A stretch of 64,000 nt of DNA, taken from assembly GCA_030390025.1 (NCBI GenBank), contig CM059430.1, positions 112,716,001 to 112,780,000 of the forward strand. Reading direction: 5' to 3'. The notes below the pieces were generated by a model. That model worked only from the letters and a program-made list of their open reading frames with translations, was not told the DNA's origin and did no database searches. Below, in pieces: positions 30,775 through 58,448 of this stretch (its first letter is position 1; every line of letters begins with the position of its first letter). The DNA is from Squalus acanthias (taxonomy: Eukaryota). A program made the translations under genes and the position numbers.

Positions 30775-31502
30775 GGCCTGGATTTTGCGCTAAAAATAAC
30801 TGAGGCTATCAGCGCTCACCGTTAAGTGTAAATCAGACTGCAACTTCCAGTGACTGCACATGCACAGTTAAACGAGGAAATCAGAAAGTTGCTGTCCAAG
30901 TGCCCTACTCGTCCAGAAGCTTTGCTATACCAGTATCTCGCCGAGGAACTCAGTGTTCACCTGCATGGAAAGGTGTGAAGTTGCGGTACTTACGTGATAG
31001 ATAGCCACTAAACTCACCAGTAAAAATTAGGGTTTGTTCATTCCAGCGTAAGTACATTAACAGTGTGATAAGTCTTAATTACTGCCAAAAAAACCCTGAA
31101 AATTAATTTTACAAGTGTGGTGTCTCATTCCTGCAGATTTTTTTTTAAATTCAAGTAACTTTTCTTTCTCTTTGTCTCTTATCTCTCTCTCTTAATCCCA
31201 TCTTTCTTCCCCTCTCTTTATTTTGCTTTCTATACATGATTTGACATTGAATCAACTATTGTAACTTACACTTCCTGGTTCAGACTCTGTGCTGCTCAGT
31301 CACAACTCTTCAATCTGATTGGTTAAGGAGATACACAGTTGCTTGCCATGTTCACAGATTCCAGAACCCCTGTAGAGGGTGCTGCACCAAAATGGCTTTC
31401 TAATCACAGCAGGTTGCAGTGCAAAATCCCACAGAAAGTCTGCGGGTAAGTGTAATGAATGGCTGGCGCCATTCGTTCAATGCTGACCGCAAAATTTGGC
31501 CC
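30775..31502. mobile_element. Harbinger-like MITE
   Basis: TIRs GGCCTGGATTTTGCG / CGCAAAATTTGGCCC; 3-bp TSD TAT/CAT. Confidence 0.75.
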
Positions 31503-31566
31503 CATGAATTTACATGGCATCCTTCTCCAGGGGTTAAAATGTTTCTGCATTATTTAAATTAAAGGA

Positions 31567-31800
31567 CTTCAGCTGCCTCAGCCCTAAGCTCGGGAATTCC
31601 CTCCCTAAACCTCTCCTCCTCTCTTTCTTCCTTTAAGATGCTCCTTAAAACCTACCTCCTTGACCAAGCTTTTGGTCATCTACCCTAATTTCTCCTTATG
31701 TGGCTCGGTGCCAAATTTTTTTGTCTTATAACATTCCTGTGAAGCGCCTTGGGAAGTTTTACTACATTAAAAGGCGCTATATAAATACAAGTTGTTGTTG
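31567..31800 (+). mobile_element. L2 LINE 3' end
   Basis: WNSLP...LLKTYL-like segment; tail GGCGCTATATAAATACAAGTTGTTGTTG. Confidence 0.8.
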
Positions 31801-52698: not shown

Positions 52699-53346
52699 CA
52701 GGAAACTCTTGTTTAACCGGCACCTAAATATCCGGAATTCTCTCTTAACCGGCAAAAATCATACTCCGAAAACTCCTCTCAAATAACCGGCAATGTTGCC
52801 AAGTCCGAGTCCGAGTCTCCCGCGAACGCCGAGTACTCCAAAAACTCCTCTCAAATAACCGGCAATGTTGCCGAGTCAGAGTCTCCCGCGAACGCTGAGC
52901 ACTCCGAAAACTCCTCTCAAATAACCGGCAATGTTTCCGAGTCCGAGTCTCCCGCGAACGCCAAGTACTCCAAAAACTCCTCTCAAATAACCGGCAATGT
53001 TGCCGAGTCCGAGTCCGAGTCTCCCGCGAACGCTGAGTACTCCGAAAACTCCTCTCAAATAACCGGCAATGTTGCCGAGTCCGAGTCTCCCGCGAACGCT
53101 GAGTACTCCGAAAACTCCTCTCAAATAACCGGCAATGTTGCCGAGTCCGAGTCCGAGTCTCCCGCGAACGCCGAGTTAGTCAGTGGGGGTAGTTCTCCAA
53201 AGTGCCACTACTCGGCCTCCTGGCGCTGTCGGAAGTCCGAACACTGCAGTAACATTAAAAATAGCCTCGGTAGATATAACTCTCCGTTATCCGGAACTTT
53301 TGATCAACCGGCACCACGCCGGTCCCGGATACCAAAGAGTTTCCTG
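52699..53346. mobile_element. Tc1/mariner (Tigger/pogo-like) MITE with internal minisatellite
   Basis: TIR CAGGAAACTCTT / AAGAGTTTCCTG; TA duplicated at 52697-52698 and 53347-53348. Confidence 0.85.
52763..53176 (+). repeat. Tandem array of six 66/72-bp units
   Basis: Unit lengths 72,66,66,72,66,72; differ by one CCGAGT hexamer. Confidence 0.95.
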
Positions 53347-53907
53347 TACTTTTTAAATGTGATGAGGGTTTCTGCCTCTACAACCCTTTCAGGCAGTGAA
53401 TTCCAGACCCCCACCACTCTCTGGGTGAAAAAAGTTCTCCTCAACTCCCCTCTAATCCTTTTACCAATTGCTTTAAATCTATGCCCCCTGGTTATTGACC
53501 TCTCTACTAAGGGAAATAGGTGCTTCTTATTCACTCTATCTAGGCCCCTCATAATTTTATACACCGCAATACGTCTCTGCTCCAAAGAAAACAAGCCCAG
53601 CCTATCCAATCTTTCCTCATAGCTAAAATTCTTACTTTTCTGACCAGTCTACCATGTGGAACCTTGTCAAAAGCCTTGCTAAAATCCATGTAGACTACAT
53701 GAACGTGCTACCCTCATCGACCCTCCTTGTAACCTCCTCAAAAAATTCAATCAAGTTAGTCAGACACGACCTTCCCTTAACAAATCCATGCTGACTGTCC
53801 TTGATTAATCTGTGCTTTTCTGAATGACAATTAATACTGTCCCTCAGAATTTTTTCCAATAATTTGCCCACCATCAAGGTTAGGCTGACTGGCCTGTAAT
53901 TACTCAA

Positions 53908-55193
53908 ATGAGAAGTCGCACAACACCAGGTTATAGTCCAACAGTTTTATTTGAAATCACAAGCTTTCGGAGCTGTTGCTCCTTCGTCGGGTGAAGTAAA
54001 GAGATACAGAATTGCCAAAGCATATATAGATAGAGAACAATGCATGTGTACCTTACAATGGTCGACGACTAAATTTAATCATCCTGACTGCCTTATGTCA
54101 CACCTCGGCAGATAAACAATCAGGTCAGCCAGGAAGGTCCCACATCAAAGACATAGCAAGATACAACTGAGACAATGAGGTGGAGTTACAGGGGGTCTAA
54201 CGTATCAAAAGCTGCAGTCAGTATGTAAAACGATAAACTTTAACATTTTTACTTTTTTACTGGGAATCACATCTGTGAACAAGCCAACGACGACTCGAGT
54301 CTGGATCACGTCATGTATCGTGACATAAACCCAAGATCCCGGTTGAGACCGTCCTCATGGGTGCGGAACTTGGCTATCAGTTTCTGCTCGATGATTTTGC
54401 GTTGTCGTGTGTTTCTAAGGCCGCCTTGGAGAACGCTTACCCGCAGATCCGAGGCTGAACGTTGCAGGAAAGAATGCACCGCGGCATGGTACATCGGCGA
54501 GACCATGCAGACACTGAGACAACGTATGAACGGACACCGCGCAACAATCACCAGGCAGGAGTGTTCCCTCCCAGTCGGGGAACACTTCAGCAGTCAAGGA
54601 CATTCAGCCTCGGATCTGCGGGTAAGCGTTCTCCAAGGCGGCCTTAGAAACACACGACAACGCAAAATCATCGAGCAGAAACTGATAGCCAAGTTCCGCA
54701 CTCATGAGGACGGTCTCAACCGGGATCTTGGGTTTATGTCACGATACATGACGTGATCCAGACTCGAGTCGTCGTTGGCTTGTTCACAGATGTGATTCCC
54801 AGTAAAAAAGTAAAAATGTTAAAGTTTATCGTTTTACATACTGACTGCAGCTTTTGACACGTTAGACCCCCTGTAACTCCACCTCATTGTCTCAGTTGTA
54901 TCTTGCTATGTCTTTGATGTGGGACCTTCCTGGCTGACCTGATTGCCTTTTGTCACACCTCGGCAGATAAACAGTCAGGTTGATTAAATTTAGTCGTCTA
55001 CCATTGTAAGGTACACATGCATTGTTCTCTATCTATATATGCTTTGGCGATTCTGTATCTCTTTACTTCACCCGACGAAGGAGCAACAGCTCCGAAAGCT
55101 TGCGATTTCAAATAAAACTGTTGGACTATAACCTGGTGTTGTGCGACTTCTCATTTTTGTCCACCCCAGTCCAACACCGGCATCTCCGCATCA
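53908..55193 (+). mobile_element. Penelope-like element, 5'-truncated with inverted 5' arm; GIY-YIG C-terminus and hammerhead motifs
   Basis: 13-bp TSD TGTAATTACTCAA; arms ~53906-54459 and 54603-55155 are reverse complements; WYIGET...LRQRMNGH...EHF...EQKLI...GLN in 54460-54756. Confidence 0.93.
55068..55105 (+). ncRNA. Minimal type I hammerhead ribozyme motif, core variant (CCGACGA); mirrored on minus strand at 53957-53994
   Basis: TCAC-CCGACGA-A-GGAGC-AACA-GCTCC-GAAA-GCTT-GCGA. Confidence 0.65.
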
Positions 55194-57159
55194 TGTAATT
55201 ACTCAATTTATCCCTTTCTCCCTTTTTAAACAATGGTACAATGTTAGCAGTCCTCCGGCACCACACCTGTAGCCAGGGAGGATTCAAAACTGATGGTCAG
55301 AGCCTCAGCTATTTCCTCCCTTGCTTCTCTTAACAGCCTAGGATACATGTCATCCGAGCCTGGCGATTTATCTGATTTCAAAGATGCTAAATCCCTCAAT
55401 ATTTCCTCTCTCACTAGGGTTCTCTCATCTAATATTTCACACACCTCCTTATCTGCAATGCCTGCATCATCCCTCTCTTCTGCAAAAACAGACGCAAAGT
55501 ATTCATTACGAACCATGCCCGCATCTTCCGCCTCCACACACAGGTTACCTTTTTGGTCTCTCATAGGCCTTACTCTTTCTTTAGTTATCCTCTTGCTTTT
55601 TATGTATTTATAAAACATCTTTGGGTTTTCCTTGATTTTACTTGCCAATATTTTTTCATGCCCTCTCTTTGCTTTCCTAATTTCTTTTTTAATTTCACCC
55701 CAAGCACTTTCTTTACTCCTCTAGGCTTTCTGCAGTATTTAGCTCTCGGTATCTGACATAAGTTTGCCTTATCCTACTCTGTATGCTCCTTTATATCCAG
55801 GGGGCTCTCGATTTGGGAGTCCCACCCTTTTTCTTTGTGGGAACATATCTGCACTGAACCCTCACTATCTCCTCCTTGAATGCCACCAACTGCTCTGACA
55901 CTTATTTACCTTCAAGTAGCTGTTTCCAATCCACTTTTGCTAAATCACATCTCAGCTTAGTAAAATTGGCCTTTCTCCAATAGAGAACTTTTACTCATGG
56001 TCCATCTTTGTTCTTTTCCATAACTACGCTAAATCTAACTGAATTATGATCACTACCACCACCCTTCCACCTGCCCAGCTTCATTCCTTAAACTCAAGTC
56101 CAGAACCACCCCACCCCCCGCTCCATCTTGTTGGGCTTGCTACGTACTGGCTAAAAAAAGTTTTCCTGAATGCATTTTAAGAATTCTGCGCCCTCTATAC
56201 CTTTTACACTGATTCTATCCCAGTTAATATTAGGGTAGTTGAAATCCCCTATTACTGCCTTATTGTTTTTGCACTTCAGAAATTTGCCAACATATTTGCT
56301 CTTGTATCTCCCTCCGAATATTTGGGGGGGGGGGGGAGCTATAGTACACTCCCAGCAGTGTGACTGCCCCTTTATTGTTCTCCAGTTCAACCCATATGGC
56401 CTCATTTGATGGACCACGACCTCTGGCTGTTCACCCTCCCACCTCATTGTCCTGCAGCCGCTCAGTGACATCCTTGACCCTGGCACTAGGGAGGCAACAT
56501 ACCATCCTGGAGTCACGTCTACGGCCACAGAAACGCATCTGTTCCCCTAACTATTGAATCCCCTATCACTATTGCTTTTATGACCTTCCTTCTCTCCCTC
56601 CTCGCAACCCTGTACAGCTGAGCCACCCATGGTCCAGTGGACTTGGCTCTGGCTGTACACCCCAGAGGAACCATCGCCCAAACCAGTATTCACAATACCT
56701 GTTAGAGAGCGAGATGCACTCAGGGTACTCCTGCACTAGCTGCCTGGTCCTCCTTGTCTGTCTAGCAGTCACCCATTCCCTCTCTGCCTGCACACTCTTA
56801 AGCTGCAAGGTGACCACCTCCTGAAACGTGCTATCCACGTAGCTCTCAGCCTCGCAGATGCACTGCAGTGACACCAGCCGCTGCTCAAGCTCCAAAACAC
56901 GGAGCTCAAGCTCCTCCAGCTGATGACACTTCCTGCACGTGTGGTTGTCCAGGACACGAGAAGTATCCTGGACTTCCCACATGGCACAGGATGTCAGCAT
57001 ATCAGGAAATTTTATACAAACCTCTTTACAAAGGTTTTGCATAAAATCATATCTATTTGTTCATGCTTCTCGTAAACAGAGTTTCAATTTCAGAGTCCTG
57101 TTACTGCGTTCTAAGTTAGTTAAAGTTCGCATAACTTGAATCAACGCCTTACACTGGTT

Positions 57160-57248: not shown

Positions 57249-58174
57249 TAAACTTATGGCACCTAGTTTCATAGTCTCCAAATTCTGTCATCGACACCAA
57301 GTGCAGCCTGTAACTCTGGTCATGACTAAGAAATTGAAGATGTACAGAGTTCAAAACAACTATGCTAAGCTACCACAGTTGGTTTGGTAGAGCCAAGACT
57401 ATGAACTGCAGCCTAAAAGAATCCTACTTCCAGCCTAAGATCAGTAGTGGGTAAGCTACTAGTGGTCATAACACAGGACAAAATTCATAGAGAGAGTTAA
57501 TTAAGGTTAGTCAGCAGGGATTTGTAAAAGGGCATGGTGTGTCTGGAAAATGTAAGAGTTCCTTGAGGAACTGAGTGCACTGATAAAGGAAATACAGAGG
57601 ATGTCATGTATATGGATTTTCAAAAAGGTGTTTGATAAGGTATACGAGGCTGGATGATAAATTAAGGTTCATGGTATTAAAAAGAATATGGCGTATTGGA
57701 TAGGACGTTGGCTAAAGGATAGAAAACCCAATAGTGGTTAATTGGAGGGCTGGTATCCTCCAGTGGTCAGTGTTGGGACCAGTGTGTGAAAGAATAAAGA
57801 CAGAACTTATTTATATTAAACAAATATTTTTAAAAAGGCTAATTTGATAAGGGTTTTTTTTAAGAAGAGATGCTAGATTTTATACATATGCAGAGTAAAA
57901 ATCAAAGAGGCAATGCTAGACGTACACAAATTGTTTAGGCAGCAGTTAGAATAGTGTGTCCAGTCTAGATCCCTTAATTTATGAAAAATTCATGATGGGG
58001 TGCAGAAAAAACTGAAAGATAACACTGGAGATGAGATGCTTTAGTTAGAAGAAACTAGAGAAACTGTGGCTCTTCGCTAAGAGAAAAAGGTTAAAAGCAG
58101 TTCTGATAGAAGTTAAAAATTCTGAGGGTCTTTGGTGAGGAAAGTATGAAAAACTATTCCACTGGCCAATGAGT

Positions 58175-58351
58175 TTTATTTGAAATCACAAGCTTTCGGT
58201 GTGCTGCTCCTTCGTCAGGTGACTTCACCTGACGAAGGAGCAGTGCTCCGAAAGCTTGTAATTTCAAATAAAACTGTTGGACTATAACCTGGTGTTGTGC
58301 GACTTCTCACATTTGTCCACCCTAGTCCAACACCAGCATCTCCACATCATG
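58175..58351 (+). mobile_element. Mini Penelope-like insertion: fold-back of hammerhead region plus 3' terminus
   Basis: Same terminus as 55068-55193; ~51-bp inverted arms 58172-58222 and 58225-58275; imperfect 14-bp TSD ACTGG(C/A)CAATGA(G/A)T. Confidence 0.88.
58225..58261 (+). ncRNA. Minimal type I hammerhead ribozyme motif with intact core; second copy on minus strand 58186-58222
   Basis: TCAC-CTGACGA-A-GGAGC-AGT-GCTCC-GAAA-GCTT: CUGANGA and GAAA boxes, 5-bp helix II, palindromic AAGCTT helix III. Confidence 0.75.
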
Positions 58352-58448
58352 ACTGGACAATGAATCAGCAACTAAACATAAATTTAAGGTCACCACCAAA
58401 AGAATGAAGGGACAGGTTAGGAGAATTTCTTGTACATGGAGAGCTTTT

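What the first reader, a model, noticed from the sequence alone, without database searches (positions are those of the whole stretch)
58161..58365. Ribozyme-only mobile unit: ~177-bp back-to-back double hammerhead with TSD
Seen: two hammerhead motifs on opposite strands, separated by 2 nt, then the Penelope 3' terminus, bounded by a 14-bp imperfect TSD. Both keep CUGACGA and GAAA. The plus copy has perfect helix II but a helix I mismatch; the minus copy has perfect helix I but damaged helix II. Known: PLE termini carry minimal hammerheads with palindromic helix III (here AAGCTT) thought to act as dimers, and non-coding hammerhead retroelements (retrozymes) exist. Inference: either an extreme 5' truncation folding back exactly at the ribozyme boundary, or a non-autonomous mini-element family that places a self-cleavage motif on whichever strand is transcribed.
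Basis: partly seen in the sequence, partly recalled or inferred. Interest (0 to 1): 0.7.

Follow-up and report, generated by a model that had tools for sequence, protein, structure and literature searches.

The report
Mirror-image Penelope run-off insertion stub
This 179-base hairpin is one of thousands of similar stubs of a common Penelope-type jumping gene in this genome, likely built afresh at each landing site from two short copies of the capped front end of the element's RNA, so it is likely a dead end rather than a mobile ribozyme, but its junctions give a testable clue to how these elements copy themselves.

Summary
In detail: two head-to-head minimal hammerheads, a one-sided tail and a TSD (12 bp, not 14). 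The junction is not unique: 415 exact copies, and 3,565 loci with back-to-back cores. It is not a master mini-family: junctions vary, and the same junction sits on several arm types. In 19 of 115 pairs the two arms carry different subfamily stems. Arms stop preferentially at one base, 30 nt after a TATA motif: 28 of 90 young copies, 27 of these preceded by a G that the parent lacks (1,725 G against 176 A genome-wide; 7 against 11 at the predicted cut site). Best reading: reverse transcription starts about 90 and 130 nt from the capped 5' end, on both nicked target strands, runs off at the cap, and the two cDNAs are joined. The stub lacks the promoter, and its hairpin is predicted to block both ribozymes. 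No RNA 5' end was mapped. The architecture is in print, and this scan met it earlier on other DNA. The cap-G and two-template evidence was not found in my searches.

The parts
58161..58172 (+). Left target-site duplication (12 bp)
   Evidence: 11 of 12 identical to 58352-58363; TSD mode 12-13 bp in 209 pairs
58173..58222 (-). Inverted, tail-less arm: element positions +4 to +53; shorter at its outer end than in most copies
58186..58222 (-). Minimal type I hammerhead motif, helix II damaged; predicted cut between 58190 and 58189
   Evidence: cut position inferred from HHR numbering
58221..58222 (+). Junction G-A: A58222 is the inferred transcript +1; G58221 is at the place of the inferred cap-derived base. 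In this one copy both bases also belong to the inverted arm, so the cap reading rests on the family statistics
58222..58351 (+). Forward arm: element positions +1 to +130, the complete inferred run-off copy
58225..58261 (+). Minimal type I hammerhead motif, helix II perfect, helix I mismatch at 58260, extra A between A9 and G10.1, palindromic AAGCUU; predicted cut between 58257 and 58258
   Evidence: PMC4209133
58312..58351 (+). About 40-nt one-sided tail, inferred to be the stretch between the two RT start sites
   Evidence: 208 of 209 pairs have exactly one tail, none has two; PMC11167929
58352..58363 (+). Right target-site duplication
53895..55206 (.). Longer sibling of a related subfamily in the same window: inverted tail-less arm, forward arm with an endonuclease-end fragment, TATA motif 55034-55041, inferred +1 at 55065, hammerhead, tail, 13-bp TSD (53895-53907 / 55194-55206)

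Best explanation
The stub is a single insertion of two short, oppositely oriented copies of the hammerhead-bearing end of an abundant Penelope-like element, flanked by one target-site duplication, and it was likely made afresh at this site when the element's enzyme primed cDNA on both nicked target strands and the cDNAs likely ran off the capped 5' end of the RNA and were joined. Inferred steps: (1) a TATA/initiator promoter in the pseudo-LTR starts the RNA 3 nt before hammerhead helix I; (2) RT initiates internally, at about +130 on one strand (tail) and about +92 on the other (no tail), as shown in vitro for an anole element; (3) RT reaches +1 and adds a C opposite the cap; (4) the two cDNA 3' ends are joined bluntly or through 1-4 nt of microhomology, often with trimming of one arm, and the commonest join uses the G-A seen here; (5) the product lacks the promoter and is predicted to fold as one long hairpin, so the ribozymes are likely passengers.
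For: Shown: 28 of 90 young copies end exactly at +1; chance of ending there 0.39 (28 of 71 still at risk) against 0.006 per nt over -6 to -300. A TATATA motif starts 30-32 nt before this A in most promoter-bearing types. 27 of those 28 have G before +1, against 9 of 26 deep truncations (Fisher p=1e-6); the parent has C or T there. Genome-wide 1,725 G against 176 A; control at the predicted cut site 7 G against 11 A among 18 true truncations in 30 loci (my reading by eye). Where both arms reach +1, 8 of 50 listed joins have C...G at both ends, 3 have the parent-type G...C, 30 have one C/G, 2 have no base, 7 are other (counted by eye). 208 of 209 pairs have one tail and none has two; TSD mode 12-13. 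Arms differ in subfamily stem II in 19 of 115 pairs, and all these types occur in promoter-bearing arms. The exact junction occurs on several arm types with the tail on either side. Hammerhead helix probability is 0 in stubs and 0.79-0.95 in the +1-to-tail RNA. Literature: both-strand nicking and extension, two internal RT starts and a predicted dimer (PMC11167929); extra G from the cap in L1 insertions (PMC11702581); TATA and Inr-like motif in a rotifer pLTR (PMC3846280).
Against: No RNA 5' end was mapped; only assembled contigs were on offer, and they cannot show starts. Much of the G excess in inverted copies could also come from the G-rich partner arm: by my reading only about 9 of 30 G loci have a G that neither partner nor target explains. 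Among single-arm copies the G lies inside the TSD in L200 and inside filler in others. The test in a subfamily with shifted TATA spacing is confounded by a self-complementary GTAC. Arms agree more often than random pairing predicts (17% discordant against 40%), and rare variants are mirrored on both arms (L027, L046), which also fits one template or fold-back for many copies. In the unbiased sample only 7 of 100 tail arms end exactly at TATA+30 and the rest spread downstream (rough ungapped mapping). The D. virilis promoter is described as TATA-less and internal (PMC2377424). The in vitro data come from the Poseidon clade, not this one.
Confidence: 0.75

Rival explanations
1. Self-priming fold-back: one cDNA (or an antisense template, as proposed for rotifer elements) folds on itself near the hammerhead's 5' edge and copies itself back.
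For: Near-perfect palindromic junctions; 96 of 115 pairs agree in stem II type; rare variants mirrored on both arms in L027 and L046; proposed in PMC3846280.
Against: 19 of 115 pairs have arms of different subfamily type, some with linked differences (L087, L137, L173, L279). The short arm ends at a fixed tail-less point. Some joins have an extra base on each arm. The hotspot and the G also appear in single-arm copies.
Confidence: 0.12
2. A non-autonomous mini-family: one or a few palindromic master stubs are transcribed and re-inserted whole by the parent's enzyme.
For: 415 exact copies of one 26-nt junction, 96-98% identical in the best 40, each examined copy with its own flanks.
Against: That junction is about 12% of 3,565 back-to-back loci, and many other junctions exist. 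In 69 loci with the junction, the variants confined to one arm and shared between loci are mostly CpG decay or subfamily markers that occur on either arm; the tail is on either side (59 against 8). No promoter in the stub. A hairpin RNA would be a poor template.
Confidence: 0.07
3. The ribozyme sets the boundary, either by cleavage or by stalling RT at its structure.
For: The hotspot is 3 nt from helix I; about 5 of 100 tail arms begin at +36 to +38, next to the predicted cut (by eye).
Against: The predicted cut is 36 nt downstream of the hotspot. Arms starting there after a purine number 306, of which about 60% are true truncations, against 1,901 at +1 in a narrower class. RT would meet a structure from its 3' side. 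Neither idea explains the G.
Confidence: 0.06

Closest known systems
Insertion unit of endonuclease-bearing Penelope-like elements (A. vaga Pen2a, PMC3846280; general scheme in PMC8557442)
   Same: Inverted 5'-truncated copy next to the 5' end, head-to-head junction palindrome, 30-40-nt tail on one side, TSD, TATA plus Inr-like motif in the pLTR, hammerhead in the pLTR.
   Different: Here both arms are often only 50-130 nt, thousands of times over, with a single-base hotspot, an extra G and mixed-subfamily arms; PMC3846280 explains the palindromes by self-priming on an antisense template.
Anolis PAc (Poseidon) in vitro mechanism, PMC11167929
   Same: Two internal RT start sites bounding the tail; both strands cut and extended; hammerhead close to the start sites; cleavage not needed for insertion.
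   Different: The parent here has a C-X4-C-X2-C linker (Neptune/Nematis type). In the parts read, that paper does not map the RNA 5' end or explain inverted units.
Minimal type I hammerheads of metazoan PLEs, PMC4209133
   Same: Short helix I, extra nucleotide between A9 and G10.1, palindromic 15.2-16.2; dual motifs on opposite strands about 100-700 bp apart were already noted in Schistosoma.
   Different: Here the two motifs are 2 nt apart and predicted to be mutually sequestered.
Non-LTR retrozymes (bioRxiv 10.64898/2026.07.22.740005)
   Same: Non-coding, pLTR-related, carry type I hammerheads.
   Different: Retrozymes are same-strand tandem repeats; this is an inverted pair with no sign of own propagation.
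L1 twin priming and cap-derived G (PMC11702581)
   Same: Two primings at a staggered break, end-joining of two cDNAs, extra G at full-length 5' junctions.
   Different: L1 primes one RNA at its poly(A) end and internally; here both arms copy the same 5' segment, sometimes from different source elements.

Membership tests
EN+ Penelope-like element insertion | End sequence continuous with an RT ORF in longer copies | tested here: met
   L195: RVT_1 E=2.6e-10 on the hammerhead strand, ORF end about 340 nt before the core
EN+ Penelope-like element insertion | C-terminal GIY-YIG endonuclease | tested here: inconclusive
   No Pfam match at E<=1 for two C-terminal pieces; a YLIRC...WYIGET...R motif is visible by eye
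EN+ Penelope-like element insertion | Inverted 5'-truncated copy, one-sided 30-40-nt tail, TSD | tested here: met
EN+ Penelope-like element insertion | Direct tandem pLTR-ORF-pLTR full-length copy | not tested
   Five long loci gave only partial, frameshifted ORFs
Neptune/Nematis clades | CX2-5CxxC linker between RT and EN (PMC8557442) | tested here: met
   C-X4-C-X2-C in L195 and L193
Neptune/Nematis clades | RT phylogeny | not tested
   no tree built; Neptune and Nematis not told apart
Minimal type I hammerhead | Core boxes, helices I and II, extra nucleotide after A9, palindromic helix III positions | tested here: met
   Met for intact family copies (L006); each window copy has one damaged helix
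Minimal type I hammerhead | Self-cleavage as a dimer | not testable with these tools
   Folding predicts no hammerhead in stub transcripts; no assay
Non-LTR retrozyme | Same-strand tandem units each with a hammerhead | tested here: not met
   Arms are inverted
Non-LTR retrozyme | Circular RNA | not testable with these tools
   Only contigs of related organisms
Self-propagating non-autonomous mini-element | Fixed junction and ends inherited from master copies | tested here: not met
   Many junction types; tail on either side; no clear one-arm lineage markers in 69 loci

The most novel reading that the evidence does not exclude
Penelope-like elements make a strong-stop cDNA, as LTR elements do: a dimeric enzyme loads two RNAs, primes both target strands about 90 and 130 nt from the cap, copies to the cap, and normally jumps to the 3' repeat to restore the promoter and build pseudo-LTRs. 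The mirror stubs are the pairs that were joined before either jumped, and they record the capped start site at single-base resolution in the genome.
Probability: 0.3. Interest if true: 0.8.

Novelty: new variant of a known kind. Interest (0 to 1): 0.48.

Why it matters
How Penelope-like elements form inverted ends, tails and pseudo-LTRs is an open question (PMC3846280, PMC11167929). If the reading holds, thousands of genomic stubs show that the template is the capped sense RNA, that both strands are primed, sometimes from two different RNAs, and that hammerhead cleavage does not define the usual template end. It also warns against filing such palindromes as ribozyme-only mobile elements or MITEs.

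Tried and rejected
Rfam scan of the window: no hammerhead at E<=1. RNA evidence: 24 runs listed, all contigs, none holding half of the words; laying 4 of them showed a depth step near +1 that mirrors genomic copy number and no cluster of molecule ends, so it is uninformative. Splice-acceptor explanation for +1 (an intron ends at helix I in D. virilis, PMC4209133): rejected, because the parent has no AG before +1 and single-arm copies share no upstream exon. Subfamily shift test: arm starts 7 nt before the core in 28 of 90 against 2 of 30, and 10 nt before in 0 of 90 against 5 of 30, but a self-complementary GTAC explains the second peak, so it is inconclusive. Whether there is a small excess of ends at the cut site over neighbouring positions was not measured. 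Whole-unit recopying, a lead from an earlier scan note: no clear sign in 69 loci. Assembly artefact: rejected, given individual TSDs, one-sided tails and arm differences. Pfam did not detect the endonuclease. The 2017 paper on dimer cleavage of PLE hammerheads was not held and is not relied on. A blast of the empty site against the window and fetched loci gave no relative, so the host repeat is not identified by a call.

Full report
1. Observation. The window holds two hammerhead cores on opposite strands at 58229-58256 (+) and 58191-58218 (-); no shuffle of 100 gives two. The insert is 58173-58351, with a 12-bp TSD with one mismatch. It folds as one hairpin (z -13.6). Rfam finds no hammerhead; the motif fits the minimal PLE hammerhead with an extra nucleotide after A9 and a palindromic helix III region (PMC4209133). 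A longer sibling with the same layout lies at 53895-55206.

2. Parent. Longer copies continue upstream into an ORF with an RVT_1 match, a C-X4-C-X2-C linker and a GIY-YIG-like motif seen by eye; Pfam does not detect the latter. The linker marks Neptune or Nematis (PMC8557442). A 32-nt piece of the tail occurs 32,808 times exactly.

3. How common is the stub? The exact 26-nt junction occurs 415 times. Back-to-back cores up to 30 nt apart occur at 3,565 loci, with many different junctions and in several subfamilies (first 50 loci listed). In the first 100 tail copies on contig C1, 42 are short-plus-short inverted pairs, 37 reach upstream of the promoter region and 21 are short without a short partner (two of the 100 look like a segmental duplicate and were not removed). 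Among 209 short pairs drawn from 375 fetched loci (a sample shaped by my queries, de-duplicated by flanks), 208 have exactly one tail, none has two, the tail-less arm mostly ends at +84 to +99, and the TSD mode is 12-13 bp.

4. Where arms stop. I took 90 of 664 copies that match positions +4 to +98 exactly; ends downstream of +4 are invisible in this set. 28 end exactly at the A that I call +1, and 60 end between -5 and +4. The chance of ending at +1 is 0.39, against 0.006 per nt further upstream. A TATATA motif begins 30-32 nt before this A in most promoter-bearing types, in spite of sequence change in between; that this spacing and the pyrimidine-A context are typical of Pol II starts is my own knowledge. 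In the unbiased sample the picture is softer: 7 of 100 tail arms end exactly there, and in 29 of 42 short pairs at least one arm ends within -5 to +7 of TATA+30 (ungapped and rough). So one arm tends to be complete and the other trimmed.

5. The extra G. The parent has C or T before +1. 27 of 28 arms ending at +1 have G, against 9 of 26 deep truncations. Genome-wide the count is 1,725 G against 176 A. At the predicted cut site the first 100 of 306 matches split 47 G to 53 A; of 30 inspected, 18 are true truncations by eye, 7 G and 11 A (the script's own label counted 23, including five small insertions in intact arms). Where both arms reach +1 (308 loci, 50 listed), 8 joins carry C and G at their two ends, which neither arm templates, against 3 of the parent type. 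An extra G from the cap is described for full-length L1 junctions (PMC11702581). Against this: the partner arm is G-rich, and many Gs can be read as partner-derived; about 9 of 30 cannot (by eye). A non-templated C added at any physical RNA end would look the same; either way the G marks the RNA's 5' end.

6. One template or two? After setting CpG decay aside, the arms differ in stem II type in 19 of 115 pairs (random pairing in this sample: 40%), in 6 of 13 in the unbiased subset, and at one or more markers in 34 of 192. One of the 19 (L343) may come from my normalisation. All the types occur in promoter-bearing arms. Copying one cDNA back on itself cannot give this; later gene conversion could. 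Most pairs agree, which fits two RNAs from the same active source, one RNA used twice, or fold-back.

7. Master family? In 69 loci with the exact 16-nt junction the tail is on the run-off arm in 59, on the other in 8 and absent in 2; the junction occurs on several arm types with markers mirrored on both arms, and one-arm variants shared between loci are mostly CpG decay (a few of these loci have complex junctions). I see no lineage of recopied stubs, but 69 of over 400 cannot exclude rare cases.

8. Ribozyme function. In stub transcripts of either strand the hammerhead helices have pairing probability 0, and forcing them costs 50-63 kcal/mol; in the +1-to-tail RNA they form at 0.79-0.95. On both strands the antisense arm comes first. 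The predicted cut site is not a hotspot comparable with +1. This agrees with PMC11167929, where cleavage was not needed for insertion and no reads ended at the cut.

9. Mechanism. Shown: anatomy, counts, hotspot, G excess, one-sided tail, mixed arms. Inferred: that +1 is the capped start, that both strands are primed at the two internal sites (shown in vitro only for a Poseidon element), and that end-joining makes the junction. The RNA could be the 5' end of full transcripts or transcripts of truncated copies that kept the promoter. Speculative: a strong-stop-like jump in normal transposition.

10. Literature and earlier notes. Read: PMC11167929 parts 1-2 of 4 (main text); PMC4209133 parts 1-2 of 4; PMC3846280 passages and Discussion; PMC8557442, PMC2377424 and PMC11702581 passages; bioRxiv 10.64898/2026.07.22.740005 parts 1-2 of 5. 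No supplements were read; those of PMC11167929 (junction and read-end figures) may bear on novelty. Inverted copies, tails, junction palindromes, TATA/Inr motifs and opposite-strand hammerhead pairs are in print. Searches for a strong-stop, cap or two-template account listed none, in an open-access library that lacks many older PLE papers. Earlier notes of this scan (seen after my reading was written) reach similar readings on other DNA; a word search for the cap signature among them found nothing. They are not independent support.

11. Verdict. Real, recurrent, a by-product of a known kind of element; not a ribozyme-only mobile unit. Its value is as a population-scale record of the insertion mechanism. 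Interest 0.48.

Noticed in passing
window 53895-55206: Longer head-to-head insertion of a related subfamily with a 13-bp TSD; it keeps the TATA motif and the inferred start in both arms, so it could fire outward in both directions.
   Followed up: partly
L130; L424; L110, L112, L149, L187: Subfamilies differ by short tandem duplications right at the inferred start site (3 nt in L130 and L424, 6 nt in others), as imprecise template jumps at +1 would leave.
   Followed up: no
listing, contigs C1-C3: Of 30 double run-off joins with a single central base, 25 show C and 5 show G on the + strand of the assembly; unexplained, perhaps chance or an assembly effect.
   Followed up: no
L038, L058, L365/L394: A different, palindromic-looking repeat has inserted at the same spot (about +55) of the arms in several stubs, suggesting a target preference.
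   Followed up: no
L092-L094, L096, L102, L106, L111 and others: An abundant subfamily has core CUGAGGA and a longer stem II loop containing a palindromic ATCGAT; others have CCGACGA or CUGAAGA cores.
   Followed up: no
L149, L350: A tail of one copy is followed directly by a second copy that starts at the TATA motif, a short direct tandem that would restore a promoter.
   Followed up: no
L140, L167, L170, L175, L176: About 5 of 100 tail arms begin within 1 nt of the predicted hammerhead cut; a minor cleavage-derived class is not excluded.
   Followed up: partly
window 52762-53153: Tandem array of about 66-72-nt units.
   Followed up: no
window 31490-31591 (-): Weak U6-like Rfam match, E=0.6, below the gathering score; probably chance or a decayed pseudogene.
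   Followed up: no
window 57400-58420: The stub sits in what looks like a decayed LINE 3' region (CR1-like by recollection; not confirmed by a call).
   Followed up: partly
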